This document shows, piece after piece, positions 4,997 to 57,150 of a stretch of 64,000 bases of DNA. The notes under the pieces were generated by a model that did no database searches, was not told where the DNA came from, and saw only the letters and a program-made list of their open reading frames with translations. The position numbers and the translations under genes were made by a program. This DNA comes from Spirochaetota bacterium (lineage in GTDB: Bacteria > Spirochaetota > Spirochaetia > JABEVK01), in the NCBI GenBank assembly GCA_020049045.1, contig JAIFLN010000005.1, positions 10,417 to 74,416 of the forward strand, read 5' to 3'. The stretch's first letter is position 1; the number at the start of each line of letters is the position of its first letter.

Positions 4997-5031
4997 TGCG
5001 AAAAACCTCACTTCATCGTATTCTACACCGT

Positions 5032-6105: not shown

Positions 6106-6109
6106 GGCG

Positions 6110-15491: not shown

Positions 15492-15565
15492 TTCGTTGCT
15501 CCTCCTTTTTCCCATCGGATGTTTTTCCATCGTCATCAAGAGAAAAAATAGGGTATCCTGAATCT

Positions 15566-17866: not shown

Positions 17867-19128
17867 TGGCCGATCTCTGGGAAAGACTGAGGGCAGCAAA
17901 GGTCCGCAATGAGACTCAAGAACGGAATTCCAAGACGGCAATTGAGCCGGATAACACCGTCGATGCTGCACCGCCAGGGTGGTCTTGGGTGGCTCCCCTT
18001 GTTGCTGAGCGCACCGTGACCTTTGAGCTGGAAGCTGGATTCTGGGGCCATTTCCAATCTCATCTCAGCCCTTCAGATTGGTATGGCGTGCTTTGCTTCG
18101 ACACGGAAACAACCGGGCTTTCCGGGGGAGCTGGCACAGTGGCATTCCTTGTTGGCTGGGCTTCGCTGGTTCCCACTTCGAATCCGGAATGCCCTGTTGT
18201 CGAGGTCCGGCAATGGTTTCTTCGCGATTTATCCGGTGAAGCGGATATGGTGGCCCTTGTAGAGCAAGCACTCCTCGGCGCAGATGAACTGGTGAGCTTC
18301 AATGGAGCGTCATTCGACCTGCCTTTGCTGCGAAGCCGTTGGGCCCTGAACGGACGGTCCTTTCCCAACATTCCCCACAGGGATGATCTTCATGCCGCAC
18401 GGAGACTCTGGAAACGTCTGCTGGAATCCTGCCGGCTATCCCGCCTGGAGGAAACAGTCCTCGGTATACAAAGAATCGATGACGTGCCCGGCAGCCTCGT
18501 GCCCGTCCTCTGGTTCGACTACCTGCGCAGCGGTGCCGCCCCAGACTTCCTCACTCCGCTCGAAGGCGTACTGCGTCATCATGCCCAGGATGTGTACTCA
18601 CTCCTTTGTTTGGATCTCGTACTTGCTTCGTTAAGGAAAGAACCCGCCAATCTTCGTTGGAAAGAGACCTTTGGGCCGTTTCCTCATCGAAAACATCTCG
18701 CTCGACCAACTTTGGAAGGCCTGCTCCACCCCGACTTGGGCAGAGAAACGCCTGTCGATTTCTGGGGTTTGCTTGACCTGCAGAAAGCCGAAACCCGTGT
18801 GGACAGGCTAGAACAGGCTTGGTTACAGAAGCAAACCGAACCTCTGGGCTTGGCTTGGGCGGATCATCTCAAGCGGCTTAAGAGCCCACAAGCCGTCGAA
18901 ATCTGGACACAGCTCTGGACGCAAAACCGTTCCTTTCCAGCACTCGAGGAATTATTGAAGTGGCTGGAACACCGTGAAAAGGGACCAGAAGCCCATCGCC
19001 ATGCCCTAGAATACCTCAGCGACGCCTTTCAATCTCCCTTTCTCCCTCAGGCCTGGAAAACCAGCTTAGAAAAGCGAAAAAAACGATTGCAGGAAAAAAA
19101 TCCACCGAGTCATCCATCTTGGGCTTAG
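17866..19128 (+). CDS. DnaQ-like DEDDh 3'-5' exonuclease (MrfB/YprB-like), translationally coupled to the helicase
   Basis: The Exo I motif CFDTETTGL occurs at the internal Met MADLWERL. The start overlaps the helicase stop (TGATG). Confidence 0.65.
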   Translation: MADLWERLRAAKVRNETQERNSKTAIEPDNTVDAAPPGWSWVAPLVAERTVTFELEAGFWGHFQSHLSPSDWYGVLCFDTETTGLSGGAGTVAFLVGWASLVPTSNPECPVVEVRQWFLRDLSGEADMVALVEQALLGADELVSFNGASFDLPLLRSRWALNGRSFPNIPHRDDLHAARRLWKRLLESCRLSRLEETVLGIQRIDDVPGSLVPVLWFDYLRSGAAPDFLTPLEGVLRHHAQDVYSLLCLDLVLASLRKEPANLRWKETFGPFPHRKHLARPTLEGLLHPDLGRETPVDFWGLLDLQKAETRVDRLEQAWLQKQTEPLGLAWADHLKRLKSPQAVEIWTQLWTQNRSFPALEELLKWLEHREKGPEAHRHALEYLSDAFQSPFLPQAWKTSLEKRKKRLQEKNPPSHPSWA

Positions 19129-21592: not shown

Positions 21593-22630
21593 ATGAAGCC
21601 CCAAGTCAGTCTGCTGAAACCTGAAGATGCCACAGGAGCACCGCTTTATCTCCTCCGTCGGGGGTCGATGGAGGTGGTACTCTCCGGTTATGGTGCTGCC
21701 ATTCGCTCAATCCGAATTCCCGATGCCAAAGGCGTGGTCGACGAGGTCACACAGGGTTGGGACGACGAAGAATCCTGGAGAGTGAATCCACCATTCTTTG
21801 GTGTCTGTGTAGGACGTTTCGCCAATAGAATCGCTGATTCTCGTTTCAGTCTCGAGGGCAAAGTTTATGAACTTGCGGCCAACGACGGCCCCAATCATCT
21901 TCATGGAGGCCAGCTGGGTTTCCATCAGCAAGTTTGGGCTTCAGCACCCTTTGAGTCGGAACTGGATGCCGGTGTTGAATTCCGGTTGATTAGTCCTGAT
22001 GGCCAAGACGGGTATCCGGGCAGGTTGGAGGTGAAAGCCAGGATCAGTTTGACTGACCGTTACGTGATCAAGACTGTTTTTGAAGCTGTCACTGACAAAC
22101 TGACACCTATCAACCTCACCAATCACACCTACTTCAACCTCGGTGGACCCAAACATGAATCGATTCTCGATCATGTTTTCTGGTCCGCTGCCGCTGAATG
22201 GCTTCCCGTCGGACCCTCTCTCATTCCAACAGGAGCCGTCCAATCGGTAGCCGATACCCCGTTTGATTTCCGTGTACCCAAACTGCTGGGAAGAGACTAT
22301 GCCCGTGTGCAAGGTGGCTACGATCACTGTTTTGTGCTTGATGTGAAAAACCGGCCCCTTTCATCAGTTCGTGAAGCCGCCAGAGCCACCCTCCCTGCCA
22401 AGGGACGAACACTTAAGCTCTATACTGACCAAAGTGGGTTTCAACTTTATACGGGCAATTTCTTGGGTGGGGTGATAGGAAGAGAGGGTAAGATTCTTAA
22501 ACCGACTGCAGCATTCTGTCTGGAAAGCCAACGGTTCCCCGATTCTATCTCCCGGCCGGAATGGGTTGCTTCCATACTGAAGCCTGGAGAAACCTACAGG
22601 CATGAGTTCCATTACGCCTTTGAGTTCTAA
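21593..22630 (+). CDS. galM: Aldose 1-epimerase (galactose mutarotase)
   Basis: GYGAAIRSI and GPNHLHGG are mutarotase signatures. The length is about 345 aa. Confidence 0.75.
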   Translation: MKPQVSLLKPEDATGAPLYLLRRGSMEVVLSGYGAAIRSIRIPDAKGVVDEVTQGWDDEESWRVNPPFFGVCVGRFANRIADSRFSLEGKVYELAANDGPNHLHGGQLGFHQQVWASAPFESELDAGVEFRLISPDGQDGYPGRLEVKARISLTDRYVIKTVFEAVTDKLTPINLTNHTYFNLGGPKHESILDHVFWSAAAEWLPVGPSLIPTGAVQSVADTPFDFRVPKLLGRDYARVQGGYDHCFVLDVKNRPLSSVREAARATLPAKGRTLKLYTDQSGFQLYTGNFLGGVIGREGKILKPTAAFCLESQRFPDSISRPEWVASILKPGETYRHEFHYAFEF

Positions 22631-36308: not shown

Positions 36309-38759
36309 CTACTTCCAGGAGATGGGTTTGATGTTCCAAATCTCTTTGGCATATTCCCCAATGGTACGGTCAGAACTGAACTTGGCGCTCGCAGCGATGT
36401 TTAGAAGCGCCATACGGTGCCATTTCTTCTGATCACGGTAAGCCTCATCAATTTTCGCCTGGGCAGCAATGTACTCAGGCATATCTTTGAGAACAAAGTA
36501 TTGGTCTGGAGCGTTACCTTCGACACCGTACATCAGGGAGTCATAAAGTTCCTTGAACAAGTCAAAACTCTCAACATTGTACGTTCCGTCAATCAGCTGA
36601 TTCATCGCTTTCTTGATTTCAGGATGCTCTTCAAGAATCGCTTGTGGATTGTAGGCTTGGCTCTGTGTCAGCCTTGCCACTTGGTCAGCTTTCAGTCCAA
36701 AAATGAAACAGTTTTGTTCTCCGGCTTCCTCGGCGATTTCGACATTGGCACCATCCAGAGTACCCACTGTCAAAGCCCCGTTCATCATGAACTTCATATT
36801 TCCAGTTCCCGACGCTTCTTTACCAGCTGTCGAAATCTGTTCGGAAACATCGGAGGCGGGAAAGATTTTCTCTGCCAGAGATACGCGATAATTCTCAAGG
36901 AAGTAAACAGCCAGCTTTCCTTTGGTTCTTGGATCGTTGTTGATAACTTTGGCAACGGTATTGATGAGCTTGATGATATTTTTCGCTCTACGGTAACCTG
37001 AAGCGGCTTTGGCTCCAAAGAGGAAAGTCCGGGGGACACCTTGATAGGTCGGATCGTCTTTTATTTTGTTGTAAAGGTACATCACATGCAGAATGTTCAG
37101 CATCTGACGCTTGTACTCATGGAGACGTTTGACCTGAACATCGAAAAGACTGTCGACATTCAAAGTGATATCTTGAGTCGCCTTAAGGTAGGTGGCCAAA
37201 GCTACTTTATTGGCCTTTTTAATATCAATCAGCCTCTGTATGACAGCAGGATCATCTGCAAACGCCTTGAACTTGGTGACCTGTGACAGATCTTTAGCCC
37301 AACCTTTTCCGATTTTTTCATTAAGAAGTTGACTGAGACCGTGATTAGCCTTTAGCAGGAACCGACGTTGGGTCACCCCATTTGTCTTGTTATTAAACTT
37401 TTCAGGATAAAGCTCGTACCAGTCCTTGAGTTCCTGATTCTTAAGAATTTCCGTATGGAGGGCTGCTACTCCGTTGACCGAATGGCTGCCATGAATAGCA
37501 AGCCAAGCCATCTTTACCACTCCATCGCTCAAGATGGCCATATGGCGGTGCTTACCATAATCGTTGGGATACTTTAACCGCAATTCTTCGACAAAACGAC
37601 GGTTGATTTCCTCGACTATCATCGTGAGCCTAGGAAGCTGCTGTTGGAAAAGACCGATAGGCCACTTCTCCAGTGCCTCACTGAGAATGGTATGGTTGGT
37701 ATATCCACAAGTACGGGTAACGATGCTCCAAGCGACATCCCAAGGCAACTTTTGCCAGTCGATCAAAATTCGCATCAGCTCGGGAATGGCAACGACCGGG
37801 TGCGTATCATTGAGCTGCAGCGCAACTTTGTCGGGAAACTTGCTGAAGTCATCACCGTATTTCTTCTTGTAGTTTCCCACCAAATCCTGGAGGGAAGCCG
37901 AAACAAAGAAATATTGCTGTCTGAGGCGGAGCGCTTTTCCCTGGGGACCATTGTCATTTGGATAGAGCACACGACTAATGTCTTCGGCAGAGTTGGCCTT
38001 TTCCACAGCTCGCTGGTACTGCATGTCATTGAACAACTGCAGATCAAAACCTGACACCGATTCAGCTTCCCAAAGCCTTAAGGTATTCACCGTCTTGGTG
38101 TCATAACCGACAATAGGTGTGTCATAGGGAATCGCTTTGATGTCCTCGGAATTAACTCGGATGTAGTGTTCCTTGCCTTCGGCATCCTGATGAATGATCA
38201 CCTGGCCGCCAAACTTGACAACTACAGACTGGTCAGCACGCCGTATTCCCCAAGGGTCACGCTCATTGAGCCATGTTTCTGGTTTTTCGATCTGGTACCC
38301 GTCGACAATTTTCTGCTGAAACATGCCGTATCGATACCGGATACCATAGCCGTGGCCAGGAAGGTCCATGGTGGCCAGAGAGTCTAAAAAACACGCTGCA
38401 AGACGGCCTAGACCTCCATTGCCCAGTCCGGCATCGGACTCCCGGTCCTCGACGAGGTTGTAGTCGACTCCCAATTCTGCCAAGACGTCCTTGATGTCGT
38501 CCTCGGCGGTCAAATTGACCAAATTGTTACTTAAAGCCCGACCCATCAAAAATTCGGCGGATAGATAAAATGCCTGCTTGTTGCCCTGGTCGAACGTGGC
38601 CTTCCTGGTATCAAGCCAGTTGTCCAGAATCGGTTCCATCACCGTGTCAGACACACAAGAATAAATTTCCTGTGGACTGGCCTCTTCCAACTGTTTGCCA
38701 TAATGGCGTTTCAGTCTGCCCAGTACACCTTCTTTGAATTTGACTTTATCAATTTTCAT
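36309..38759 (-). CDS. glgP: Glycogen/alpha-glucan phosphorylase
   Basis: PLP-lysine region EASGTGNMKFMMNGALTVGTLDGANVEI. 816 aa. Confidence 0.9.
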   Translation of the reverse strand: MKIDKVKFKEGVLGRLKRHYGKQLEEASPQEIYSCVSDTVMEPILDNWLDTRKATFDQGNKQAFYLSAEFLMGRALSNNLVNLTAEDDIKDVLAELGVDYNLVEDRESDAGLGNGGLGRLAACFLDSLATMDLPGHGYGIRYRYGMFQQKIVDGYQIEKPETWLNERDPWGIRRADQSVVVKFGGQVIIHQDAEGKEHYIRVNSEDIKAIPYDTPIVGYDTKTVNTLRLWEAESVSGFDLQLFNDMQYQRAVEKANSAEDISRVLYPNDNGPQGKALRLRQQYFFVSASLQDLVGNYKKKYGDDFSKFPDKVALQLNDTHPVVAIPELMRILIDWQKLPWDVAWSIVTRTCGYTNHTILSEALEKWPIGLFQQQLPRLTMIVEEINRRFVEELRLKYPNDYGKHRHMAILSDGVVKMAWLAIHGSHSVNGVAALHTEILKNQELKDWYELYPEKFNNKTNGVTQRRFLLKANHGLSQLLNEKIGKGWAKDLSQVTKFKAFADDPAVIQRLIDIKKANKVALATYLKATQDITLNVDSLFDVQVKRLHEYKRQMLNILHVMYLYNKIKDDPTYQGVPRTFLFGAKAASGYRRAKNIIKLINTVAKVINNDPRTKGKLAVYFLENYRVSLAEKIFPASDVSEQISTAGKEASGTGNMKFMMNGALTVGTLDGANVEIAEEAGEQNCFIFGLKADQVARLTQSQAYNPQAILEEHPEIKKAMNQLIDGTYNVESFDLFKELYDSLMYGVEGNAPDQYFVLKDMPEYIAAQAKIDEAYRDQKKWHRMALLNIAASAKFSSDRTIGEYAKEIWNIKPISWK

Positions 38760-48387: not shown

Positions 48388-49383
48388 TTACTGTGCAGCA
48401 GCGGCGGCAGGAGCAGGCTGATCAAAAGCAGCTTCTTTAGCCATCTTCTTAGTTTCCAGGGACCGAAGTACCTGAAGATTACCAAGTTTCGCCAACTCAA
48501 AGTTGCGTTCCGACTCTTCCCGAGCCTTAAGAATACCCCAAATCGCCTCATCATCGACATCGGCGTTTCTATCAACGACAGCCTGGTCATAGATGACCTT
48601 GATGTCTTTGATATAGGAAACGATGTCACCGCCATCCTGAGCTGCGTCCCGATGAATGACAATGCCCTTAAGCTTGATCATCGGAGCCGAGCGAGGATAG
48701 AGAGGAAGAACTTTGACGTCCCTGTTCCGAACTTCGGTCTGATAGTTCGGATTGTTCCATTGAAGAGCCTTCCAGCCATCGAAGTTCAGATATCCCATAA
48801 AGATTTCCTGTTCTTGGCCCAGTTCATTTTCCAGCAACAACGAAATGCTGTTGGAGAAGTTCCGTCCCAGAATATTGATCTGAATGGACTTGATCACGCC
48901 GACGTTCTTGAGAACGCCGAAGCCATCAAACTGCGAACCAGCCTTAGCGTTCTGATCGGTCGAACCTTCCAGCGTGGCATAAGCAGGGATAGTGAACGCA
49001 GGCTTGATTATCGCATACGAGTTCACACCGTAAGACGGGAAGTGAATCCGGACACCCATGACAGTCTCACCACCAAACTTGGCGGCATCCTGCTTGACGG
49101 GAGCAGCGGTAATCTGGGACAGGGTCTGGTTCTCCACGGACTGTGAAGAAGAAGCCAGTACAATTTCCCAGCTAGGAATAGCGAGGGAGATCTTCATCTT
49201 GGCCTTGTCTTCAGCACTGTAGGCTGATCCCGCCTGGCGGCTATAGTCGATGGTCGTCTGAGCGTGCAGGCCAGCATCTCCTTCGCCAATCAACTTTGAG
49301 AAATCAATGAGAGTCGCTTGTTCTGCGAAGGCACTGTTAGCCAGAAACAGGGCCACCCCCAGAATCGTGAAGAACCTTTTCAT
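48388..49383 (-). CDS. flaA: Flagellar filament outer-layer (sheath) protein FlaA
   Basis: Signal peptide MKRFFTILGVALFLANSAFA. It is about 331 aa, with the FlaA-family composition and C-terminus, a GGAG ribosome-binding site, and is the last gene of the operon. Confidence 0.75.
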   Translation of the reverse strand: MKRFFTILGVALFLANSAFAEQATLIDFSKLIGEGDAGLHAQTTIDYSRQAGSAYSAEDKAKMKISLAIPSWEIVLASSSQSVENQTLSQITAAPVKQDAAKFGGETVMGVRIHFPSYGVNSYAIIKPAFTIPAYATLEGSTDQNAKAGSQFDGFGVLKNVGVIKSIQINILGRNFSNSISLLLENELGQEQEIFMGYLNFDGWKALQWNNPNYQTEVRNRDVKVLPLYPRSAPMIKLKGIVIHRDAAQDGGDIVSYIKDIKVIYDQAVVDRNADVDDEAIWGILKAREESERNFELAKLGNLQVLRSLETKKMAKEAAFDQPAPAAAAAQ

Positions 49384-49431
49384 CCAGTGCTCCTTTTTAG
49401 CTTGGATTCTTTTTTTCATTATATGGATGCT

Positions 49432-49905
49432 TCATCCTTTGTCAACGAGATTCACCCCAGTAGGTTCCCCCCCCACCGAGATCATCACATTCGAAACACC
49501 TGAAAAGTTGTCCATCAGCGTCGCTTTCAGGACATCCAAGGCCATTACAGGCGAATATATAACATCGGGGTCAGGATTGAAAGCCCTTTTTGACAAATCG
49601 ATGAAAGCTGTTTGCCCACGAACGAGAACTGTTCTAACCTGGGCCTCACGGGAAAACAACCGCAAGTGCTGATGCTGCGCTGGTCCAAGCAAGATTTCCT
49701 TGGTCAGGAGTTCCATATCGTGTTCCACATTTCCATTGAACGGCAAAGAACGGGCCTCAGGTACCAACTGATGGCTGATTTCTGCTGGAAATTGAAGGAC
49801 TGTTCGGACAAGATTGCCTGGGAGAACGAAATACAGCAAAAGAGATAGCAGAAACACTAAAGCAAGTGCTGCCAAGGCCCCAAGAAGTGTCCGATCAGAA
49901 GTCAT
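49432..49905 (-). CDS. GerMN-domain membrane-anchored protein
   Basis: N-terminal transmembrane helix, then ILLGPAQ...VRTVLVRGQTAFIDLSKRAF matching the GerMN core (LL.GP...V....A.VDLS..F). A 4-nt overlap with the amidase gene. Confidence 0.5.
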   Translation of the reverse strand: MTSDRTLLGALAALALVFLLSLLLYFVLPGNLVRTVLQFPAEISHQLVPEARSLPFNGNVEHDMELLTKEILLGPAQHQHLRLFSREAQVRTVLVRGQTAFIDLSKRAFNPDPDVIYSPVMALDVLKATLMDNFSGVSNVMISVGGEPTGVNLVDKG

Positions 49906-52343
49906 GGAAGGTCCTCATAATTGTGGATAAATGATTCCAGCCCATTATAGAGACCCTGGGCTAATTTCTTCAAGTAATTCGGATCGTGCAGAGACTCAGC
50001 TTCTTCGGGATTCGTGATAAATCCCAGCTCTGCCAGAACAGCAGGCATTCGTGCCATCCTTACCACAAACCAAGGGTTTTCCTTCAATCCTCTCTGGACA
50101 CTGGAGTCACCCAGCTCTTTTGCCAGCCCTCGAGCCAAATGCTCAGCCAATTCTCGGCTTTCTTTCTTGTATTCAGAATCCACCAAAGTATTCAGTACCG
50201 GAAACACCGATTCCGGAATATCGATTCCAGGAATTACCTCCCTTTCAAAATTCTGGGGGACGTACCAAAGCTCCAAGCCCCGGGCTTTTCGGTTAAGACT
50301 GGCATTGAAATGGAGGGAGAGAAAAAAAATCGATTCTTGATCTCCTAATTTCTGAGCATGGGCAATCTGCACTCTTCTTTCCAGTGTTGGGTAGGTGTCA
50401 TTCTTTCTGGTCAGCACGATAGTTCGGTCGGGATACGCCTCCGTCAGCAATTTCTGTAGTTCCAAGGCAACCGTAAGTGTCAGATCTTTTTCCCGCAGGA
50501 CGACCTCTTTTCCATCAATGGTATGGCGGCCAATGCTGCCGGGATCTGTTCCTCCGTGACCAGCATCAAGAACAAGAACTTGGATTCTTGGCCCCTGACC
50601 GGTTCGTTCAACCGTAACCGGAACTGCAGGAATCTTGGTAGGAACCGGTTGATTATTCCACCAGCTCAGCAGAGTCTGGAAGTCGGTTGAATCCAGCTGG
50701 CCAGTAATGGGGTCAAGTTTTTGGAGGGAAAACTCATCCTTTCCATCTCCCAAAGCCAATCCCGTGACCAAGTCAATTGACAGCCGGTGTCTGGTATCAG
50801 AAAGCAAAACGATGTCCCGATAGGGTTCCCAGAATACCTTAGCCCCGGTCTGCAACACCAAATCCTGAAGATTCTCGGCAAGGACAGGCGAGGCGTACCG
50901 AGCTCCACAAAGCCCCCCAACAAGCAGAGACCGCCATACGCGCTCTGTAAACTCGGAAGGTTCCATCCCTTCTTTGCGAAGGACTACCAACAAATCCTCC
51001 AAGGTGTTTCCGTAGAGATCTTTCCAGGCTCCGGCCCGAGCCCGTTCAAGCAAGCCTGCCGATGTTTCCGAGAGTCCTCGGGCTTCGGGGAACCACCAGG
51101 GGTCGGCACCCGTCCCTTGCAGAAACAATTCGGTAGCGGGATTGGGGTACTCATATTCAAAAACCACTAGGTTTCGAACCAGGCGAGCGGTTTCCTCCAC
51201 TTCCTTTGCTTGGGTACCGGCGACAATGACATTCCCCAGTTTCTCAACATTGTTACGGGGAAATACCGTTTTTGTTCCAGGAGCAACGAGAAGAAACAGG
51301 TCTTTGACACCCGGCAAGTCGCGAGCCTGATCTACTCCATGGATTGCCTTGATTCTTCCGGGCAAACCGATCCAGGCCCGTTCCGCGACTGGCAGACTAA
51401 CCTCATCAGGCTGCTTCGATAGGGGAAGTCCCAGGGCTGTTTCAACAGCCCAGAGCACTGCAGAACGCCCTGATGTCAACGGATAAGTCCAGCCAGACAT
51501 ATAGCCGCCGGAAAGACGTGAGGCTATTTCACCAATAACAGGACCCCGTGAAGGTGAGAATTTCACGTCCCCTTTCGCGGCTCCCCAATTGAGCCCCAGG
51601 GCACGCACACCCCGTTCGAATTCGTTCCAGACAGCTTCTTGGACTACCACTGGGGCCGTCGAGGGAAAAGTATGGCCAATTTCAACAAAGGTCGGAGGAA
51701 AGACAATGGTTCTGTCGGCCAACCCGCACCGGATCAGCTGCCCGTCCCGAACAATGGCATCAACGCTAAACTCCGGACCATCGATGTACTCCTCGACGAT
51801 GGCACGACCCGTCAGGGAAAAACCAACCGCATCGGCAAGGGAAGCAGGCAAATCTTCACTGCGATGGACGAGCCGGACTCCCCGGGCACCCATGCTGTCC
51901 GTCGGCTTGACTACAACAGGAAAGGGAAAGTCCAGCTTGGGAATTGTTTGCGACAACCCTTCAAAGACTTGATGCCGGGGTGAGGAAATTCCCGCTTCAT
52001 CAAAGCGGTGCCGCATCAGGCCCTTGTCCCTGGCCAGAAGGGCCGCTTCATAGGGAGTCCCAGGCAGGCCAAGATGTTCAGCAATCCAGGCTACTGTCGT
52101 AGAAAAGTCCGTACCCACGGTCAGAACACCATCCAGGCGCTGAGCCTTCTGATGGGACCGGGCTCGTTCGAGGCAACGTTCAAGGTCTTTGATGTCACAG
52201 ACTTCAAACCAATCGGCTTGGTCACGAGCCGGGGCCATGGGGTTTCCGTCAAAACAGAGTACCTTAACCCCAAGCTGATGTGCAAACTTGAGAGCCGGCA
52301 GCTGCATGACGCCACCCCCAATCAACAGCAGATGCAGACTCAT
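49902..52343 (-). CDS. Fusion protein: N-terminal ATP-grasp ligase domain plus C-terminal N-acetylmuramoyl-L-alanine amidase (Amidase_3/AmiC-type)
   Basis: ATP-grasp hallmarks: VVVKPTDSMGARGVRLV and EEYIDGPEFSVDAIV. The C-terminal part (VLDAGHGGTDPGSIG..., NASLNRKARGLE) matches Amidase_3 zinc ligands. Confidence 0.65.
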   Translation of the reverse strand: MSLHLLLIGGGVMQLPALKFAHQLGVKVLCFDGNPMAPARDQADWFEVCDIKDLERCLERARSHQKAQRLDGVLTVGTDFSTTVAWIAEHLGLPGTPYEAALLARDKGLMRHRFDEAGISSPRHQVFEGLSQTIPKLDFPFPVVVKPTDSMGARGVRLVHRSEDLPASLADAVGFSLTGRAIVEEYIDGPEFSVDAIVRDGQLIRCGLADRTIVFPPTFVEIGHTFPSTAPVVVQEAVWNEFERGVRALGLNWGAAKGDVKFSPSRGPVIGEIASRLSGGYMSGWTYPLTSGRSAVLWAVETALGLPLSKQPDEVSLPVAERAWIGLPGRIKAIHGVDQARDLPGVKDLFLLVAPGTKTVFPRNNVEKLGNVIVAGTQAKEVEETARLVRNLVVFEYEYPNPATELFLQGTGADPWWFPEARGLSETSAGLLERARAGAWKDLYGNTLEDLLVVLRKEGMEPSEFTERVWRSLLVGGLCGARYASPVLAENLQDLVLQTGAKVFWEPYRDIVLLSDTRHRLSIDLVTGLALGDGKDEFSLQKLDPITGQLDSTDFQTLLSWWNNQPVPTKIPAVPVTVERTGQGPRIQVLVLDAGHGGTDPGSIGRHTIDGKEVVLREKDLTLTVALELQKLLTEAYPDRTIVLTRKNDTYPTLERRVQIAHAQKLGDQESIFFLSLHFNASLNRKARGLELWYVPQNFEREVIPGIDIPESVFPVLNTLVDSEYKKESRELAEHLARGLAKELGDSSVQRGLKENPWFVVRMARMPAVLAELGFITNPEEAESLHDPNYLKKLAQGLYNGLESFIHNYEDLP

Positions 52344-54136
52344 GGCAGCTCCTTTGTTTTTCGGGCATAAACCTCAAACGTGTCACCCCAGCCCAACCAG
52401 CGGTCCAGCAGCGTAACAATTGATAGTACAGGATCTGAGGGTCCTTTCAGTCCGGGGAACCGCTCCGGATGATGCCCTGTAACCCGAAATGCCAACACTT
52501 CAAAACCAAAACGTCTCAGAATCGGTTTCGTATTGGCCGGATTCCATATGGAAAAGTGATCATCCGGGCTTTCTTCCCAGAATTTCTCGGGTTGAAACGT
52601 TCTGGTGATTCCCTTTCCATTGGGCGTGGAAAAGGCAAACAGACCTCCGAGAGGGAGCAGTTTATTGACCTGGCTGAGCACGGCTGACAGATCGGGAAAA
52701 TGTTCAATGACATACCAAAGCGAAACAAGATCGGGGCGGGTTACCCCTGGAAAAGACTCTTCCCATCGGAACTCCAAAAAAGAGGCCTTGACCGCTGGAA
52801 ATCCAAGTGAGTCCCGAACATAGGCTACCGCAGCTTCTGCGACATCGAGGCCGAAAGGATGATGCCCCGAGGCCGCAGCCGCTGCCAGGAACGGACCGTA
52901 GGCACAGCCGACATCCAGAATATTCCTGCCGACACTCGTACCAGCCGTACGATCAAGAAACTCCAACCGCTGCTGCCCTAAAGCCTGAATGTGAGCAAAG
53001 TCTTGTAGGTAGGTCTTTCCATACTGCTTTTGATAATCTTCAAAGAAATACGCTTCTGAGTATTCTTTGGGAGGTAGTTGGTGGGCCGAGAGATACTCCA
53101 TTCCACAAACGGCACAACGATGGTAACTCTTATGATGGCTTCGGAAGAAAACAGCATTGCCGCCAGTTCGGCATACTGGGCAACGGCTGTCGGTACCACG
53201 AAAGGTTGAAAAATACTCTCCTGCATTGAGAGGCTCTTGCAGCAACTTCGTAAAAGCTTCGCGCGCGGCACCCTGGGCATCTTCCAAACCGGAAAGAAAC
53301 GCATCGGCTCGGGGTCTGCGTACACCAAAAGTGGGAAGTCTAGCGGCGCGTGAAAGCTGTTCATGATAATTGGTGGGATTCAAAAGCAGGACGGGAGTTC
53401 CGGCAGCCAAGCTTTCCAAAGCGGTCAATCCCCACGAGGTAACCGTCAGATCCCATTGACCAAGGAGTTTGGGAAGCTCGGGCGGAGCTTCCAGCACTTC
53501 GGTATCCAGCGGAACGATAAATCGCGAAAGCGGCCCGCGGACGACAGTCAAAGAATACGGGAACCTCCCCTGTGTGCGAAGGGTCTGAACCATGGCTAGG
53601 AACTTCAACGTCAACCCGGCAGGATCAGAACCACCGAAAACAGCCAGCATGGTTCGGATTGGTCTATCGTAACGGTGCGGTTTGGGAGGAAAAGACAGAC
53701 CGAGGAGGCCTGGAAGACGCACATTGGGTTCAGGCTTTGTATCGTGTGGAAGCGAGTCTACCAGAAACGCAAACCGCCTCCGGGCAGGTCCCCCGTCATC
53801 CCACCCTATCAAATGCAAGGTCCGACGGGAAAGAAGGGAAAAAGCCGATAACGGTGCAGCCTGCATGTCGAGAACTGCTTTGGGAGCAATATAGGATTCC
53901 GGCCATTTCATCCAGAGTTGAACACCGGCAGAATCCGCCAGGCTCTGAACAATGGACCGCTCAAATACCGGGTGCTTTCCGACAAAGGCAGAGTCGGCTG
54001 CAAAATAGACCACCGCCTGGGGTCCAACCGAGGCCGCAGCCGCCAAACAGCGGCGCAAATGCCCCATGCCTCTATCGATTCTGAGGCTGGGAATAAAAAC
54101 CAACTCTGGTGTCAGCGCGGATGTCGGTTCAACCAT
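52340..54136 (-). CDS. Fusion protein: PseG-like nucleotide-sugar hydrolase (GT28/MurG-like fold) plus zinc-ribbon class I SAM-dependent methyltransferase
   Basis: N-terminus RIDRGMGHLRRCLAAAAS and later FGGSDPAGL match the PseG motifs IGxGHxxRxLxLA and GGTD. The C-terminal part has CPVC...CAVCG and the methyltransferase motif I ILDVGCAYGPF. Confidence 0.6.
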   Translation of the reverse strand: MVEPTSALTPELVFIPSLRIDRGMGHLRRCLAAAASVGPQAVVYFAADSAFVGKHPVFERSIVQSLADSAGVQLWMKWPESYIAPKAVLDMQAAPLSAFSLLSRRTLHLIGWDDGGPARRRFAFLVDSLPHDTKPEPNVRLPGLLGLSFPPKPHRYDRPIRTMLAVFGGSDPAGLTLKFLAMVQTLRTQGRFPYSLTVVRGPLSRFIVPLDTEVLEAPPELPKLLGQWDLTVTSWGLTALESLAAGTPVLLLNPTNYHEQLSRAARLPTFGVRRPRADAFLSGLEDAQGAAREAFTKLLQEPLNAGEYFSTFRGTDSRCPVCRTGGNAVFFRSHHKSYHRCAVCGMEYLSAHQLPPKEYSEAYFFEDYQKQYGKTYLQDFAHIQALGQQRLEFLDRTAGTSVGRNILDVGCAYGPFLAAAAASGHHPFGLDVAEAAVAYVRDSLGFPAVKASFLEFRWEESFPGVTRPDLVSLWYVIEHFPDLSAVLSQVNKLLPLGGLFAFSTPNGKGITRTFQPEKFWEESPDDHFSIWNPANTKPILRRFGFEVLAFRVTGHHPERFPGLKGPSDPVLSIVTLLDRWLGWGDTFEVYARKTKELP

Positions 54137-54783
54137 GGGATCAGGTCCTCCACTTCGAGGGGCTTGCCCCGGTAAAGATCGGTCCAAAGGGACCGCAGAT
54201 ACTGAAGATCATCCGGTGTATCAAGGGTCACCCTGGCTGCAGGTGCCCGCAACGCTTCTGCAACTGCCGGGTGGTTGATATGAAAACGCTCCGGTCGGCG
54301 GTACAGAAAGGGGCTTGCGTGTTCCTGCTCATACTCGTCGGGGTCCGATGACCAAGCCTCTTCGAGAGCACTTACCTTCAGAACTTCGACACCAGTCCCA
54401 ATGGGGGAACCCACAAAGCCGCTGTAATCTGCGCCGCTGGCAAGATGCAGCTCCAGGAGCTCGTTGGCTAGTCGGGCTGAAACCAAGGGATTGTCACCGG
54501 TGGCACGAACAACGGTGCTGGTTCCTATCGAACGGGAAGCTTGGACAAAGCGGTCCAGAACATTTTGTTTGTTGCCGATGTAAATTTCCCAGCCTGCTGA
54601 GCGGGCAAGGGGTTCAAGTTCGCCGGCACTCTCAGGTTCCGTGACCAACACTCGCCGGTCAACACGCACGGCGGCAAGAGCTTCAATGCAGCGTTGCGTA
54701 ACAGAAGTTCCACCCAAGTCGGCCAAGGCCTTGCGTGGGAGACGTGTCGAGTCCAGACGAACCTGCAAAAACACAGCGGTCAC
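54112..54783 (-). CDS. Cytidylyltransferase, SpsF/PseF/KdsB-like (CMP-sugar synthetase family)
   Basis: N-terminal FLQVRLDSTRLPRKAL matches the IIxARxxSTRLPGKxL motif. 223 aa, typical for PseF/SpsF. GTG start. Confidence 0.6.
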   Translation of the reverse strand: MTAVFLQVRLDSTRLPRKALADLGGTSVTQRCIEALAAVRVDRRVLVTEPESAGELEPLARSAGWEIYIGNKQNVLDRFVQASRSIGTSTVVRATGDNPLVSARLANELLELHLASGADYSGFVGSPIGTGVEVLKVSALEEAWSSDPDEYEQEHASPFLYRRPERFHINHPAVAEALRAPAARVTLDTPDDLQYLRSLWTDLYRGKPLEVEDLIPWLNRHPR

Positions 54784-55733
54784 AAGTTCCCCCAGAGCTC
54801 AGACAACAGTCTGGCATCAGTCTGAAACCGGTAACGGTGAGTTTTTACCCACGCACGCTCATTCAGAAATTCGGCCAGACTATCGCTAAAGGAACGGCCG
54901 CTGCGCCTCGCATGAGCCCAAAACCGGATCATTGGAAGCACTCCATGATCTCCTAGATGTCGTACCGCCAAATTCCGAAGATAAAACCGGGAATAGGAAC
55001 GGTCAGGGGTTTGATCTTCGGAGGGAACTTCCGAGCGGTAGTCCACTTTGAACCCTCGGTCCACTACCAGTCTTTCACCCCAAAGGTGGCTTCTGACTCC
55101 CCAGTCCACTTTTTGCCAGAAAGGATTGCCGAGCGCTTGGTCATACCCGCCCGTTGCCAAAAATTTTCCGCGGTTGTAGAGACCGGTATAGTCGGATGCA
55201 AAAAGAGTATCCACGTTTTCCTGGTCGGTACCCAAGGTAAGGATCTTGAGACGATCCTTCTCAAGAGTAGGGACTTGAACGCAGGGAAGTTCATATCCCT
55301 CCCTATCGCGCATTTCGGGAACCATGACCAAGAAAGAAAAGTCCTGCCACAGACGTTGGACCTTCGAATGCAGTCCTGTTTCTGACAGGGATTGATCGTC
55401 CCACAAAACCAAAAACCGGTCTCCTCGAATTTCCCTTGCCGCCAAATTGATCCTCACTCCCGGTGTCGCGGGCTCTGATAGAACCAGAAAACGCAGACCA
55501 GGGAGGTCGCCTAGCAGTTTCTCGGCATCAAAACGGGGACTTTCCTGTTCGATACAAAGAATTTCTGGAAAACCGAGGGAATGAAATTCCGTTAGTACCG
55601 AAGGCCGGAAAAGCGCCGGCCCACGCCCCAGAACAACCAATGAAACCCGAAGTTCAAAGCGGCTGGTCGTGCCTTCGGGTGCTCTGCTGCCCAGGATGGA
55701 GTAGGATTCAGAAATGAAAGGTGTACCACTCAT
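54780..55733 (-). CDS. Hypothetical protein (about 317 aa), possibly a glycosyltransferase-like orphan in the flaA operon
   Basis: Long ORF overlapping both neighbours. The internal Met at 55733 leaves a 26-nt overlap with the upstream gene. Only a weak DxD-like WDDQS. No confident family. Confidence 0.35.
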   Translation of the reverse strand: MSGTPFISESYSILGSRAPEGTTSRFELRVSLVVLGRGPALFRPSVLTEFHSLGFPEILCIEQESPRFDAEKLLGDLPGLRFLVLSEPATPGVRINLAAREIRGDRFLVLWDDQSLSETGLHSKVQRLWQDFSFLVMVPEMRDREGYELPCVQVPTLEKDRLKILTLGTDQENVDTLFASDYTGLYNRGKFLATGGYDQALGNPFWQKVDWGVRSHLWGERLVVDRGFKVDYRSEVPSEDQTPDRSYSRFYLRNLAVRHLGDHGVLPMIRFWAHARRSGRSFSDSLAEFLNERAWVKTHRYRFQTDARLLSELWGNL

Positions 55734-57150
55734 CGCAATTCCTGCAGACCTCGGGCCAGTCTTCCTTGACATGCCGCTCAAACAGCCTATCTCCCCGATC
55801 CCAAACAGCCGAAAGTTCCTCTGTCCAGGCATTGCCCAGGGGCTGAGTCCGATGAAAGTCGTCCCGACAAACGACCACCGTTCCATCAAGAAAGACCGCC
55901 AAGTCACGGGCGAGGTGCCAGCAGGCATGCCGTTTCCAAGGAGAAAGATCCGACGGTTTGGCGCGGTCAAGTCTTCCTCCAAAATCGTTATGCTTCTGAA
56001 TGATGACTCTGCCGGCTTCCTCTTTCCAATGCCGGTGAAAAGCCTCCATCTCGTTTTCATTCTCACCCATTCGCACTGTCTGAGGCCAAACCCTGGAAGG
56101 AAATAGCGCAATCAGCCGGCGGGTAAAAGCCTGAGCTTCTTCCAGACCGTTACCACGAAGTTTCTGATAGGTTTCCGCAACATCAGAATCGAGCTCAACA
56201 ATCCAGTCGAGGTTGGTTGGATGCCTCGCGGCCAAAGAATCGAGATCTACCTTTCCCCAGCCCAAACCAGAGGTTTCCAGGCACAAATGCAGGCCAGGCT
56301 TTGCCAAAGCGTCAGTCATCAATTCCAGAATTTCAGGATGAAGAGAAGGTTCTCCCCAAAAGGACGGCATGACAGTCAGATCTCCAGCCCAAGCCAGAGC
56401 CTGGTCCAGAAGATTGTTCCACCGTTGACGGGAAAGCGTGTTTCTCCGGGTCAGAGCATCAGGGTTTATTTGTTTCAGAGGTGACCAGATTGGTATCTGG
56501 CGCACCCCATCCGTGATTTGAACAAGAAGTGTGGCGGGCAAGGTCCGAGACCGATCGGCGGTAACATCGAGAACATCCAAAAAACCCTTGGTATCGAGGC
56601 TGACCTCCCCAAGGTAGCGGTCAAGAAGAATTCGGTTGCGGCGGGAATCGGCTGTCAGACTGAGCCGACGGGAACGCAGATCCACTGGGCTGAGCTGGGT
56701 TTCGATATCAAACCTGTTGATATCGACAGAGAGAAGCTGAAACAGCGACTCACGGGTGACTGGCCCACCTTTATCGGCTGCCCATCCTGCCAAAAGAGGG
56801 AGGATGGACGGACGGAGAATTTCGGCGGTCAAACCTATTGGATAGCCATCTGCAAAAGTATAGTCAGCCCGGTATTCACGATGAAGTGCCCGCATTTGAT
56901 GGAGAACATCAATGCGCAAGAAAGGGCTGTCATCAACAGCAAGCACCAGTTCATCAAACCCCTCGGAGATCGACTGCAAAGCCGATACAAGGTCAAGGCA
57001 GCTGAGAAACGGCCCCAAAGATTTCCGAGGCACACCAGGAGCGGCCTGATCGAGAGCGTCAGACACCCAATCAGCCACACTGCGGTTGCCCAGAGGACGG
57101 TCGGGGTCAACGACCGGTTGAAACGACAACAAGACACAGAGAGTGTTCAT
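55708..57150 (-). CDS. Spiro-SPASM-like protein: N-terminal cytidylyltransferase-like domain, a radical-SAM-like core lacking CxxxCxxC, and a C-terminal SPASM-like Cys cluster
   Basis: Central FWGEPSLHPE resembles the radical-SAM GGEPLLHP motif, but no CxxxCxxC is present. The C-terminus (ACWHLARD...VVVCRDDF...EVCRNCDEW) is SPASM-like. The N-terminal 150 aa are nucleotidyltransferase-like. Confidence 0.5.
   Translation of the reverse strand: MNTLCVLLSFQPVVDPDRPLGNRSVADWVSDALDQAAPGVPRKSLGPFLSCLDLVSALQSISEGFDELVLAVDDSPFLRIDVLHQMRALHREYRADYTFADGYPIGLTAEILRPSILPLLAGWAADKGGPVTRESLFQLLSVDINRFDIETQLSPVDLRSRRLSLTADSRRNRILLDRYLGEVSLDTKGFLDVLDVTADRSRTLPATLLVQITDGVRQIPIWSPLKQINPDALTRRNTLSRQRWNNLLDQALAWAGDLTVMPSFWGEPSLHPEILELMTDALAKPGLHLCLETSGLGWGKVDLDSLAARHPTNLDWIVELDSDVAETYQKLRGNGLEEAQAFTRRLIALFPSRVWPQTVRMGENENEMEAFHRHWKEEAGRVIIQKHNDFGGRLDRAKPSDLSPWKRHACWHLARDLAVFLDGTVVVCRDDFHRTQPLGNAWTEELSAVWDRGDRLFERHVKEDWPEVCRNCDEWYTFHF

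What the first reader, a model, noticed from the sequence alone, without database searches (positions are those of the whole stretch)
52340..54136. PseG-like hydrolase fused to a zinc-ribbon SAM methyltransferase
The N-terminal 330 aa carry the two PseG signatures (G-x-GH-x-x-R-C-L and GG(S/T)D). The C-terminal 270 aa carry a double CxxC zinc ribbon plus methyltransferase motif I (LDVGCAYG). Such a fusion would couple UDP-sugar hydrolysis to methylation in one polypeptide, suggesting a methylated nonulosonic or related sugar. I am not aware of this fusion being characterised.
Basis: partly seen in the sequence, partly recalled or inferred. Interest (0 to 1): 0.6.

Follow-up and report, generated by a model that had tools for sequence, protein, structure and literature searches.

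The report
Spirochaete PseG-like hydrolase–methyltransferase fusion enzyme
This is a real, intact gene that joins a PseG-like sugar-nucleotide domain to a zinc-ribbon methyltransferase; it is conserved in hundreds of spirochaete species in an operon just upstream of the flagellar sheath gene flaA, has never been characterised, and may help build the unusual methylated sugar on spirochaete flagellins.

Summary
Window 52340-54136 (-) is one uninterrupted 598-aa ORF. It has a compact GT-B domain (aa 10-312), a Cys4 zinc ribbon (aa 319-344) and a class I SAM methyltransferase.

The GT-B domain's only consistent family match is PseG. The match is far below the family cut-off, but the GxGHxxR catalytic-His motif and the GG(S/T)D motif are invariant. 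The zinc-ribbon/methyltransferase half most resembles the Zn-binding NDP-sugar C-methyltransferases MtmC, KijD1 and TcaB9.

The fusion is not an artefact and not rare. Three independent assemblies encode the identical protein. At least 586 species-level genomes, all Spirochaetota apart from one MAG binned as Ignavibacteriota, carry a relative. In all 83 loci examined the two halves share one frame. In 25 of them (25 of 83, mostly Treponema) the upstream SpsF-like cytidylyltransferase is fused on as well.

The gene always sits in the same operon: spiro-SPASM, an unknown (GT-A-like?) protein, cytidylyltransferase, this gene, ATP-grasp ligase, amidase, GerMN, FlaA.

The function is inferred, not shown. 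It is most likely a bifunctional tailoring enzyme of a CMP-activated, methylated (nonulosonate-type) sugar. It may be linked to the methoxy-bearing flagellin glycan known from Treponema denticola. It is a new, uncharacterised variant of known enzyme kinds, of moderate interest.

The parts
52340..54136 (-). Complete CDS of the fusion protein (598 aa from ATG 54136; the mechanical ORF extends to a TTG at 54187)
   Evidence: The product is 100% identical to P0001 from three independent assemblies. AF2 model: pLDDT 92.5, pTM 0.88.
53201..54109 (-). Compact GT-B (PseG/SpsG-like) domain, aa 10-312
   Evidence: AF2 pLDDT 92.3. Foldseek top hits are GT-B glycosyltransferases GtfA/GtfD/YjiC/MGD1/MurG. 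20 of 20 family members hit NCBIfam PseG TIGR03590 as best family, best E 9.6e-11, all below the cut-off.
54044..54070 (-). GMGHLRRCL motif (aa 23-31); G23, G25, H26 and R29 are invariant
   Evidence: hhalign places H26 on His17 and R29 on Arg20 of C. jejuni PseG.
53624..53638 (-). FGGSD motif (aa 167-171); invariant F-G-G-x-D
   Evidence: Aligned to MGGTD (G165, G166, D168) of PseG.
53105..53182 (-). Cys4 zinc ribbon, CPVC...CAVC (aa 319-344)
   Evidence: C319, C322 and C341 are invariant and C344 is conserved in at least 90%. It forms a beta-hairpin pair in the model. Full-length Foldseek hits to Zn-binding NDP-sugar methyltransferases span about 305-324 columns.
52493..52960 (-). Class I SAM-dependent methyltransferase core (Pfam Methyltransf_23), aa 393-548
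   Evidence: Pfam 71.1 bits against a cut-off of 27. PDB profile hits to UbiG, TcaB9, KijD1 and D-glucose O-methyltransferase.
52895..52918 (-). Methyltransferase motif I, LDVGCAYG (aa 407-414)
   Evidence: D408, G410, C411, A412 and G414 are invariant. Coordinates.
54112..54783 (-). Upstream SpsF/KdsB-like cytidylyltransferase (CTP_transf_3). Its stop overlaps the target's start by 25 nt. It is fused to the target in 25 of 83 loci.
54780..55733 (-). Conserved 317-aa protein of unknown family, with weak GT-A hints
   Evidence: Present in 75 of 83 loci. No Pfam hit. Profile against PDB 5tze: E 0.07. Glycos_transf_2 in 3 of 13 members.
55708..57150 (-). spiro-SPASM protein (TIGR04321), first gene of the operon
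   Evidence: 441.7 bits against a cut-off of 250. The radical-SAM CxxxCxxC motif is missing here but present in about half of the orthologues.
49902..52343 (-). Downstream ATP-grasp (L-amino-acid-ligase-like) gene, here fused in frame to an Amidase_3 domain
   Evidence: The ATP-grasp gene follows the target in 77 of 83 loci. The in-frame fusion results from a 56-bp difference from contig L001.
48388..49419 (-). FlaA periplasmic-flagellum sheath protein, last gene of the conserved array (a GerMN gene at 49432-49905 lies between)
   Evidence: Pfam FlaA in the gene calls. Present in 65 of 83 loci.

Best explanation
The gene encodes a cytoplasmic, two-activity sugar-tailoring enzyme found across the spirochaetes.

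Shown:
- A compact GT-B domain whose only recurrent family match is PseG/SpsG. This is the UDP-sugar hydrolase step of pseudaminic/legionaminic-acid pathways.
- That domain keeps the family's invariant G-x-G-H-x-x-R, D, D and GG-x-D positions.
- It is joined through a Cys4 zinc ribbon to a class I SAM methyltransferase. The zinc-ribbon/methyltransferase unit looks most like NDP-sugar methyltransferases.
- The gene is translationally coupled within a conserved operon: spiro-SPASM, a GT-A-like unknown, an SpsF-like cytidylyltransferase, this gene, an ATP-grasp amide ligase, (amidase), GerMN, FlaA.

Inferred:
- The operon makes or tailors a CMP-activated, O-methylated (nonulosonate-type) sugar.
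- The PseG-like half uses the conserved His as a base to release the nucleotide from an NDP-2,4-diamino-2,4,6-trideoxyhexose derivative.
- The methyltransferase half adds a methyl group to the same intermediate or to its N-acyl side chain.
- The neighbouring ATP-grasp enzyme would install that amide-linked side chain, and the cytidylyltransferase would activate the final sugar.

The most likely destination is the O-glycan of the periplasmic flagellin FlaB. In T. denticola that glycan is a Pse-configured nonulosonic acid carrying a 2-methoxy-4,5,6-trihydroxyhexanoyl group.
For: Architecture and fold:
- Pfam and NCBIfam hits.
- AF2 models with pLDDT 92 and pTM 0.85-0.88.
- GT-B Foldseek hits for the N-terminal domain.
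- Foldseek hits to the Zn-binding NDP-sugar C-methyltransferases MtmC, KijD1 and TcaB9 for the full-length model.

PseG relationship:
- 20 of 20 N-domains hit TIGR03590 as best family.
- In Treponema triple fusions the match spans profile positions 14-263 of 280.
- hhalign is collinear. It pairs invariant G23, G25, H26, R29, D90, D113, G168, G169 and D171 with PseG residues G14, G16, H17, R20, D76, D100, G165, G166 and D168. All of these except G166 are also invariant in the Campylobacter PseG alignment.
- The size, about 300 aa, matches PseG (274 aa) rather than typical 350-400-aa GT-B transferases.

Genomic context:
- The synteny is invariant in 80 species loci.
- The gene is fused to the cytidylyltransferase in 25 of 83 loci.
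- An SpsF (cytidylyltransferase) plus SpsG (PseG-like) pair is genetically required for legionaminic acid in B. subtilis (PMC7439481).

Flagellar link:
- The operon ends in flaA.
- In T. denticola flaA is co-transcribed with its four upstream ORFs (PMC9481697).
- The T. denticola FlaB glycan contains a methoxy group and an amide-linked acyl chain (PMC13439194).
- The window's own FlaB keeps the VEVSQL and DR(I/V)AS glycosylation motifs (PMC7431986).
Against: - PseG similarity is remote. Scores are 25-45 bits against a cut-off of 153.6. hhalign probability is 19-37%. The PDB profile search did not recover 3HBM, and 3HBM is not in the Foldseek top 50.
- No PseB, PseC, PseH or PseI (NeuB) genes lie in the 64-kb window, nor in the flanks of the five related loci whose gene calls were read.
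- In T. denticola the known PseI gene, TDE0960, is far from flaA (PMC9862357).
- I could not show that T. denticola has an orthologue. It has only four ORFs upstream of flaA, against six in T. brennaborense.
- The cytidylyltransferase scores better against KdsB-type models than against PseF.
- No activity, substrate or methyl acceptor has been demonstrated for any member.
Confidence: 0.5

Rival explanations
1. The N-terminal domain is a true glycosyltransferase rather than a hydrolase. It would move a sugar, perhaps the CMP-activated product of the adjacent cytidylyltransferase, onto an acceptor such as flagellin, a lipid carrier or another sugar. The fused methyltransferase would then cap the product.
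For: - The best structural matches are transferases: GtfA/GtfD, YjiC, MGD1, MurG.
- Several members give weak hits to Glycos_transf_1 and to MSMEG_0565 and GlcN-PG synthase glycosyltransferase models.
- Fusion to a cytidylyltransferase in Treponema would place donor synthesis next to donor use.
- As far as I know, no Maf- or FlmG-type flagellin transferase has been assigned in spirochaetes.
Against: - The domain is PseG-sized and lacks the extra acceptor-binding elements of 350-400-aa GT-B transferases. Target-normalised TM-scores are only 0.44-0.56.
- PseG is the only family hit by every member.
- The His-Arg motif typical of the hydrolase is invariant.
- The adjacent 317-aa GT-A-like protein is an alternative candidate transferase.
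Confidence: 0.25
2. The operon serves the cell wall rather than flagellin. The ATP-grasp ligase and the MurNAc-L-Ala amidase would act on peptidoglycan peptides, and the fusion protein would make a methylated sugar or another modification for peptidoglycan or a periplasmic glycoconjugate. The flaA adjacency would be inherited synteny only.
For: - An Amidase_3 gene and a GerMN gene follow the ATP-grasp gene in most loci (66 and 31 of 83).
- In the window the ATP-grasp and amidase form one ORF.
- The ATP-grasp domain resembles D-Ala-D-Ala and L-amino-acid ligases.
Against: - The amidase is dispensable for the array. It is absent in L087 while the ATP-grasp gene stays.
- The ATP-grasp/amidase fusion in the window results from a 56-bp difference from a 99.7-99.9% identical contig (L001). 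That difference also removes the amidase signal peptide.
- SpsF/SpsG-type pairs are known from nonulosonate pathways.
Confidence: 0.12
3. The methyltransferase acts on a non-sugar substrate, such as a quinone or other small molecule as the UbiG-type annotation suggests, or on a protein. The GT-B domain would be a degenerate binding or scaffold module.
For: - JGI labels many members '2-polyprenyl-3-methyl-5-hydroxy-6-metoxy-1,4-benzoquinol methylase'.
- The best sequence hits in PDB and NCBIfam are UbiG.
Against: - The UbiG hits are far below cut-off (26.7 against 103 bits) and cover only the generic SAM-binding core.
- The GT-B domain keeps about 20 invariant residues across 34-100% identity, including the nucleotide-binding GGxD and E241. 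This argues for an active site under selection.
- The operon partners are all sugar-nucleotide-type enzymes.
Confidence: 0.08
4. The fusion is an assembly or sequencing artefact that joins two adjacent genes.
For: None found. The neighbouring ATP-grasp/amidase ORF does show that this window can differ from a sister assembly by an indel.
Against: - The identical 598-aa product comes from three independent assemblies.
- Both halves share one frame in 83 of 83 loci from different species.
- 245 of 258 collected relatives contain both halves, and most of the rest are visibly truncated fragments.
- The high pTM of 0.88 indicates a defined inter-domain arrangement.
Confidence: 0.01

Closest known systems
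PseG (Cj1312, PDB 3HBM/3HBN; NCBIfam TIGR03590), UDP-2,4-diacetamido-2,4,6-trideoxy-beta-L-altropyranose hydrolase
   Same: - Compact two-Rossmann GT-B domain of about 280-300 aa.
- The G-x-G-H-x-x-R motif, with the His that I recall as the catalytic base (Rangarajan et al. 2009; paper not held).
- A conserved Asp after beta4, a DD/DE motif and GG(S/T)D.
- It is the only curated family hit by all members.
   Different: - About 11-14% identity, with scores 4-6 fold below the family cut-off.
- It carries a C-terminal zinc ribbon and methyltransferase that PseG lacks.
- It is not next to pseB, pseC, pseH or pseI.
- The substrate is unknown.
B. subtilis SpsF/SpsG pair (legionaminic-acid pathway of the spore crust)
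   Same: A CTP_transf_3 cytidylyltransferase is encoded directly beside a PseG-family protein. JGI names the spirochaete proteins SpsF/SpsG-like. Both sps genes are genetically required for nonulosonate display (PMC7439481).
   Different: The sps locus also encodes the dehydratase, aminotransferase, acetyltransferase and NeuB-type synthase. The spirochaete operon has none of these. Instead it has a methyltransferase, an ATP-grasp ligase and a spiro-SPASM protein.
Fused nonulosonate-pathway enzymes: H. pylori HP0326 (PseF-PseG; from my own knowledge) and PseG-GNAT (PseG-PseH-type) fusions
   Same: PseG-type domains are often fused to another enzyme of the same pathway. One search shows a 427-aa Campylobacter-type PseG carrying GNAT acetyltransferase domains (P0409). 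The Treponema form is cytidylyltransferase plus PseG-like plus methyltransferase.
   Different: I did not find a methyltransferase partner, with its zinc ribbon, in any described fusion. The searches of the held literature, which were limited, returned none.
TcaB9 / KijD1 / MtmC, Zn-binding NDP-sugar C3-methyltransferases
   Same: An N-terminal Cys4 zinc module is followed by a class I SAM fold. These are the best Foldseek matches of the full-length model (E 2.5e-12 to about 1e-9, about 305-324 aligned columns), and they also score in the sequence profile search. An E-H pair follows beta4 (VIEHF, invariant E478 and H479).
   Different: Only 15-19% identity. Pfam assigns Methyltransf_23, with no hit to the TcaB9-type Methyltransf_13/14 domains. 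The C-terminal sugar-binding domain differs. Whether O-, N- or C-methylation occurs is unknown.
spiro-SPASM protein family (TIGR04321)
   Same: It is the curated spirochaete-restricted family that marks the same operon. The window's copy is a member (441.7 bits).
   Different: It is a different gene of the operon, and its function is also unknown.

Membership tests
PseG (NCBIfam TIGR03590 equivalog) | Whole-protein score at or above the curated cut-off (153.55 bits) | tested here: not met
   24.9-27.8 bits for the window protein. The best member reaches E 9.6e-11. All members are far below the cut-off.
PseG (NCBIfam TIGR03590 equivalog) | Compact GT-B fold of about 280 aa | tested here: met
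   The AF2 model has two Rossmann-like halves within aa 10-312. Foldseek hits are GT-B enzymes with probability 1.00. 3HBM itself is not in the top 50.
PseG (NCBIfam TIGR03590 equivalog) | Catalytic His in an N-terminal G-x-G-H-x-x-R loop, plus a GG(S/T)D nucleotide loop | tested here: met
   H26 and R29 align to His17 and Arg20. G168, G169 and D171 align to G165, G166 and D168. H26, R29, G168, G169 and D171 are invariant in the spirochaete family. H17, R20, G165 and D168 are invariant in the Campylobacter PseG alignment (G166 is not listed as invariant there). The catalytic role of His17 is from my own knowledge of Rangarajan et al. 2009.
PseG (NCBIfam TIGR03590 equivalog) | Hydrolysis of UDP-2,4-diacetamido-2,4,6-trideoxy-beta-L-altropyranose | not testable with these tools
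   This needs an enzyme assay.
PseG (NCBIfam TIGR03590 equivalog) | Genomic association with the other pse genes (pseB, pseC, pseH, pseI, pseF) | tested here: not met
   Only a cytidylyltransferase is adjacent. No dehydratase, aminotransferase, GNAT or NeuB-type synthase was found in the window or in the +/-10 kb of the five related loci whose gene calls were read. The rest of the genome was not visible.
Class I SAM-dependent methyltransferase (Pfam Methyltransf_23, PF13489) | Score above the gathering threshold, with an intact motif I (D/E-x-G-x-G-x-G type) and an acidic residue at the end of beta2 | tested here: met
   71.1 bits against 27. LDVGCAYG has D408 and G410 invariant, and D431 is conserved in at least 90%.
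TcaB9-type NDP-sugar C-methyltransferases (Pfam Methyltransf_13/14) | Sequence membership in the family-specific domains | tested here: not met
   There is no Pfam hit to those models. The similarity is structural only: Foldseek E about 1e-12 to 1e-9, TM normalised to target 0.43-0.49, 15-19% identity.
TcaB9-type NDP-sugar C-methyltransferases (Pfam Methyltransf_13/14) | Cys4 zinc site N-terminal to the SAM fold | tested here: met
   C319, C322, C341 and C344 are conserved and lie on beta-hairpins just before the methyltransferase core. Metal binding itself was not tested.
UbiG-type quinone O-methyltransferase (the JGI name for many members) | Score at or above the TIGR01983 cut-off (102.95 bits) | tested here: not met
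   26.7 bits, covering the SAM-binding core only. The source annotation is a generic transfer.

The most novel reading that the evidence does not exclude
The fusion and its operon partners may be the missing tailoring module for the spirochaete flagellin glycan.
- The ATP-grasp enzyme would amide-link a 3-deoxyhexonate to the 4-amino group of the UDP-sugar intermediate, replacing the acetyl-CoA-dependent PseH step.
- The methyltransferase domain would O-methylate that side chain, giving the 2-methoxy-4,5,6-trihydroxyhexanoyl group seen in T. denticola.
- The fused PseG-like domain, adapted to the bulky N-acyl substrate, would release UDP. Methylation and hydrolysis would then be channelled in one polypeptide.
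- The product would be condensed by a PseI encoded elsewhere and activated by the adjacent or fused cytidylyltransferase.

Because the operon is co-transcribed with flaA, glycan supply would be tied to sheath synthesis.
Probability: 0.2. Interest if true: 0.7.

Novelty: new variant of a known kind. Interest (0 to 1): 0.45.

Why it matters
[quoted passage not shown] The glycans sit at the core-sheath interface in both Treponema and Leptospira (PMC13439194, PMC13144727). In the papers I could read, the only enzyme assigned to this glycan's synthesis is PseI (TDE0960). I found no enzyme assigned to its methoxy-hexanoyl side chain.

This operon is conserved across the spirochaetes and lies directly upstream of flaA. 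It encodes a PseG-like/methyltransferase fusion, a cytidylyltransferase and an amide ligase. That gives concrete, genetically testable candidates for the side-chain chemistry.

If the link fails, the family remains a large, completely uncharacterised and mis-annotated enzyme group ('UbiG-like methylase'). It has at least 586 species genomes and 416 clusters at 50% identity, and it marks a spirochaete-specific pathway of unknown product.

Tried and rejected
- A profile of the N-domain against PDB sequences did not recover PseG at E <= 10.
- hhalign against the PseG sequence and against a Campylobacter-only PseG profile gave collinear but low-probability alignments (37% and 19%). I use these only for residue correspondence.
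- The key paper on the T. denticola glycan (Kurniyati 2017, PMC5182079) and the PseG structure paper (PMC2742864) are not held. Their content is cited second-hand or from memory.
- I tried to place T. denticola TDE1713-1716 on the operon by translating the published RT-PCR primers and matching them to the loci. Only TDE1714 = amidase (ELGFIS) was convincing; the rest was noise. Whether T. denticola has an orthologue therefore remains open.
- I looked for standalone N-domain proteins. Of the 13 proteins with no C-domain hit, most break off in the linker or zinc ribbon or are otherwise truncated; five or six stop near the domain boundary and could not be classified. I found no convincing split version.
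- I looked for pse/leg genes elsewhere in the window and found none.
- I initially considered the spiro-SPASM protein as a radical deoxygenase for the side chain. I dropped this for this genome because its CxxxCxxC motif is absent here.

Full report
**1. What is in the sequence**

The region holds one minus-strand ORF, 52340..54187 (615 aa from a TTG). The ATG at 54136 gives a 598-aa product.

The start overlaps the stop of the upstream gene by 25 nt.
- GMGHLRRCL, aa 23-31
- FGGSD, aa 167-171
- CPVC and CAVC, aa 319-322 and 341-344
- LDVGCAYG, aa 407-414

**2. Is it more than chance, and is the fusion real?**

I aligned 38 full-length homologues reaching down to 34% identity (A1). The invariant positions include:
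- G23, G25, H26, R29, D90, D113, G115, R119, D127, N138, F167, G168, G169, D171, G236, E241, P254 and H258 in the first half
- C319, C322 and C341 in the zinc ribbon (C344 is conserved in at least 90%)
- D408, G410, C411, A412, G414, E478 and H479 in the methyltransferase

Both halves are therefore under selection.

The identical protein is encoded on three independent assemblies (two JGI metagenomes and one Logan run). A scan of one genome per species found at least 586 genomes with a relative. The 80 best are all Spirochaetota, apart from one MAG binned as Ignavibacteriota. They include Treponema bryantii, T. ruminis, Oceanispirochaeta, Sediminispirochaeta, Rectinemataceae and many MAGs.

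In all 83 loci held, the N- and C-terminal halves lie in one uninterrupted frame.

That scan was seeded from C-terminal peptides. I therefore also searched 1.84 billion cluster representatives with a profile of the N-domain alone. This gave 416 representatives at E <= 1e-30, and almost all of the best 150 are 560-650 aa. Of 258 relatives collected, 245 contain both halves. Most of the rest break off inside or just before the zinc ribbon or are otherwise truncated, and a few that end near the domain boundary could not be classified. I found no convincing split version.

**3. The N-terminal domain**

Pfam sees nothing there. NCBIfam gives a sub-threshold hit to PseG (TIGR03590: 24.9 bits, E 1.4e-5, cut-off 153.55). 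When 20 diverse N-domains were scanned separately, all 20 hit PseG as the best family (best E 9.6e-11). No other family was hit by more than five. In the Treponema versions the match runs over profile positions 14-263 of 280, essentially the whole PseG model.

AlphaFold models are confident: full length pLDDT 92.5 and pTM 0.88, N-domain alone pLDDT 92.3. Foldseek against the PDB puts the N-domain firmly in the GT-B fold. Hits include GtfA/GtfD, YjiC, MGD1, WaaG and MurG, with E down to 9e-8 and TM 0.55-0.63 normalised to the query. C. jejuni PseG (3HBM) is not in the top 50, and a sequence profile against the PDB did not recover it.

I confirmed the 3HBM sequence and compared it by hhalign. 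The alignments are collinear but of low probability (37% and 19%). They are useful for one thing. The residues invariant in the spirochaete family (G23, G25, H26, R29, D90, D113, G168, G169, D171) fall on G14, G16, H17, R20, D76, D100, G165, G166 and D168 of PseG. All of these except G166 are also invariant in my PseG alignment. From my own knowledge of Rangarajan et al. 2009 (paper not held), His17 is the catalytic base of PseG.

The domain is PseG-sized, about 300 aa against 274, rather than the 350-400 aa of the transferases it superposes on. My reading is that it is a remote PseG/SpsG-type relative with an intact active-site framework, but not a demonstrable member of the PseG equivalog. 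Hydrolase versus transferase chemistry is not settled.

**4. The C-terminal half**

Pfam Methyltransf_23 scores 71 bits (cut-off 27) over aa 393-548. The profile search of PDB sequences finds UbiG first and then the sugar C3-methyltransferases KijD1, TcaB9 and MtmC, and a D-glucose O-methyltransferase.

With the full-length model, the best Foldseek matches are exactly those Zn-binding NDP-sugar methyltransferases: MtmC, KijD1 and TcaB9 (E 2.5e-12 to about 1e-9, about 305-324 aligned columns). The zinc ribbon and methyltransferase together therefore resemble enzymes that methylate nucleotide-sugars. The identity is low (15-19%) and the family-specific Pfam domains are not hit, so this is a resemblance and not membership. 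The JGI label '2-polyprenyl...benzoquinol methylase' rests only on the generic SAM core (26.7 bits against 103).

**5. Genomic context**

The gene is the fourth in a tightly overlapping minus-strand array:
- spiro-SPASM protein (TIGR04321, 441.7 bits), 55708-57150
- a conserved 317-aa protein without any family, 54780-55733
- a CTP_transf_3 cytidylyltransferase, 54112-54783
- the fusion, 52340-54136
- an ATP-grasp L-amino-acid-ligase-like protein plus Amidase_3, 49902-52343
- a GerMN protein, 49432-49905
- FlaA, the periplasmic flagellar sheath protein, 48388-49419

By tblastn the same order holds in the related loci. Counts out of 83 are: spiro-SPASM 71, unknown 75, cytidylyltransferase 79, ATP-grasp 77, amidase 66, FlaA 65. 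Most of the missing ones are at contig ends. Gene calls in T. brennaborense (complete genome) and three other lineages show the same picture. One of these lacks the amidase but keeps the ATP-grasp gene.

In 25 of 83 loci, mostly genus Treponema (T. ruminis, T. bryantii, and by protein search T. pectinovorum, T. berlinense and T. brennaborense), the cytidylyltransferase is in the same ORF. This gives an 820-840-aa triple fusion.

No PseB, PseC, PseH or PseI-type genes are in the window. None appear in the flanks of the five related loci whose gene calls were read.

**6. What it most likely does**

A cytidylyltransferase directly beside a PseG-family protein is the SpsF/SpsG arrangement. Both of those genes are genetically required for legionaminic acid on B. 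subtilis spores (PMC7439481). PseG-type domains are also known fused to other pathway enzymes. One search shows a PseG-GNAT fusion, and H. pylori HP0326 is PseF-PseG (from my own knowledge). That places the fusion in a CMP-sugar, nonulosonate-type pathway by analogy.

Several published observations point to flagellin as the destination:
- Spirochaete flagellins are O-glycosylated.
- In T. denticola the glycan is a Pse-configured nonulosonic acid whose N7 carries a 2-methoxy-4,5,6-trihydroxyhexanoyl group. It is essential for filament assembly (PMC13439194; PMC9481697).
- Making that glycan needs an O-methyltransferase and an amide-forming enzyme beyond the canonical Pse set. This operon supplies a methyltransferase and an ATP-grasp ligase.
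- In T. denticola flaA is co-transcribed with its four upstream ORFs from a sigma-70 promoter (PMC9481697).
- The window's own FlaB (14628-15539) keeps the VEVSQL and DR(I/V)AS glycosylation motifs (motifs per PMC7431986).

I therefore favour a bifunctional enzyme that removes the nucleotide from, and methylates, an intermediate of a flagellin-directed sugar.

This is inference. No activity has been shown. The T. denticola PseI gene (TDE0960) lies elsewhere (PMC9862357). I could not establish that T. denticola has an orthologue.

**7. Rivals**

- The N-domain may be a real transferase. The structural neighbours are transferases, and the fusion to a CMP-sugar synthetase would fit.
- The operon may serve peptidoglycan (ATP-grasp plus amidase). 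However, the amidase is not always present. The ATP-grasp/amidase single ORF in this window comes from a 56-bp difference from a 99.7-99.9% identical contig (L001).
- The methyltransferase may act on a non-sugar substrate. This is supported only by a generic annotation.
- An artefactual fusion is excluded.

**8. Novelty and score**

The parts are familiar: a PseG/SpsG-like GT-B domain, a Zn-ribbon class I methyltransferase and a cytidylyltransferase. The combination, its restriction to spirochaetes and its fixed place upstream of flaA are not described in any paper I could find. Databases name it only generically.

I class it as a new variant of a known kind. A glycobiologist would not be astonished by a fused tailoring enzyme. 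The family is nevertheless large and wholly uncharacterised, and it offers testable candidates for an unsolved piece of spirochaete flagellin chemistry. Interest: 0.45.

Noticed in passing
window 49902-52343 (-), junction near aa 480-490: The ATP-grasp ligase and the Amidase_3 protein form a single 813-aa ORF here. A 99.7-99.9% identical JGI contig (L001) has 56 extra bases holding the ligase stop codon and the amidase start with its signal peptide (MKRFLTVFLLGLMASSPVLA). The window's version fuses the two in frame and would leave the amidase without an export signal. This is either a strain deletion or an assembly error.
   Followed up: partly
window 55708-57150 (-); orthologues in L010-L078: The spiro-SPASM protein has lost the radical-SAM CxxxCxxC motif in this genome and its close relatives, and in many Treponema. 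The window reads ...QITDGVRQIPIWSPL... About 36 of 68 orthologues keep GCPQxCxYCPYP. The family is thus split between apparently active and degenerate radical-SAM cores while staying in the same operon.
   Followed up: partly
window 54780-55733 (-): A conserved 317-aa protein present in 75 of 83 loci has no Pfam or NCBIfam family. Its profile gives only faint GT-A glycosyltransferase hints (PDB 5tze E 0.07; Glycos_transf_2 in 3 of 13 members). It has a VLVLWDD stretch where a DxD motif would sit. The mechanical ORF (443 aa) is longer than the called gene.
   Followed up: partly
window 14628-15539 (-): A FlaB-type flagellin (Flagellin_N plus Flagellin_C) retains the VEVSQL and DRVAS sequences. 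These correspond to O-glycosylation sites of T. denticola FlaB.
   Followed up: partly
L086 17039-21667; L084 and L085 about 17000-18300: In some relatives flaA is followed by cheA-cheW/cheR-cheX-cheY. In others it is followed by a RelA_SpoT/TPR protein. The array upstream of flaA is far more conserved than what follows it.
   Followed up: no
L006 (CAWCCK010000037.1): A locus 61% identical to the query comes from a MAG labelled Ignavibacteriota. Every other hit is spirochaetal, so this is probably a binning error rather than horizontal transfer.
   Followed up: no
window 4996-7681 (+), 21593-22630 (+) and 36309-38759 (-): Sugar-metabolism genes lie elsewhere in the window: glucokinase, a UDPGP-like uridylyltransferase, aldose 1-epimerase and glycogen phosphorylase. 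None is of the Pse/Leg pathway type.
   Followed up: no
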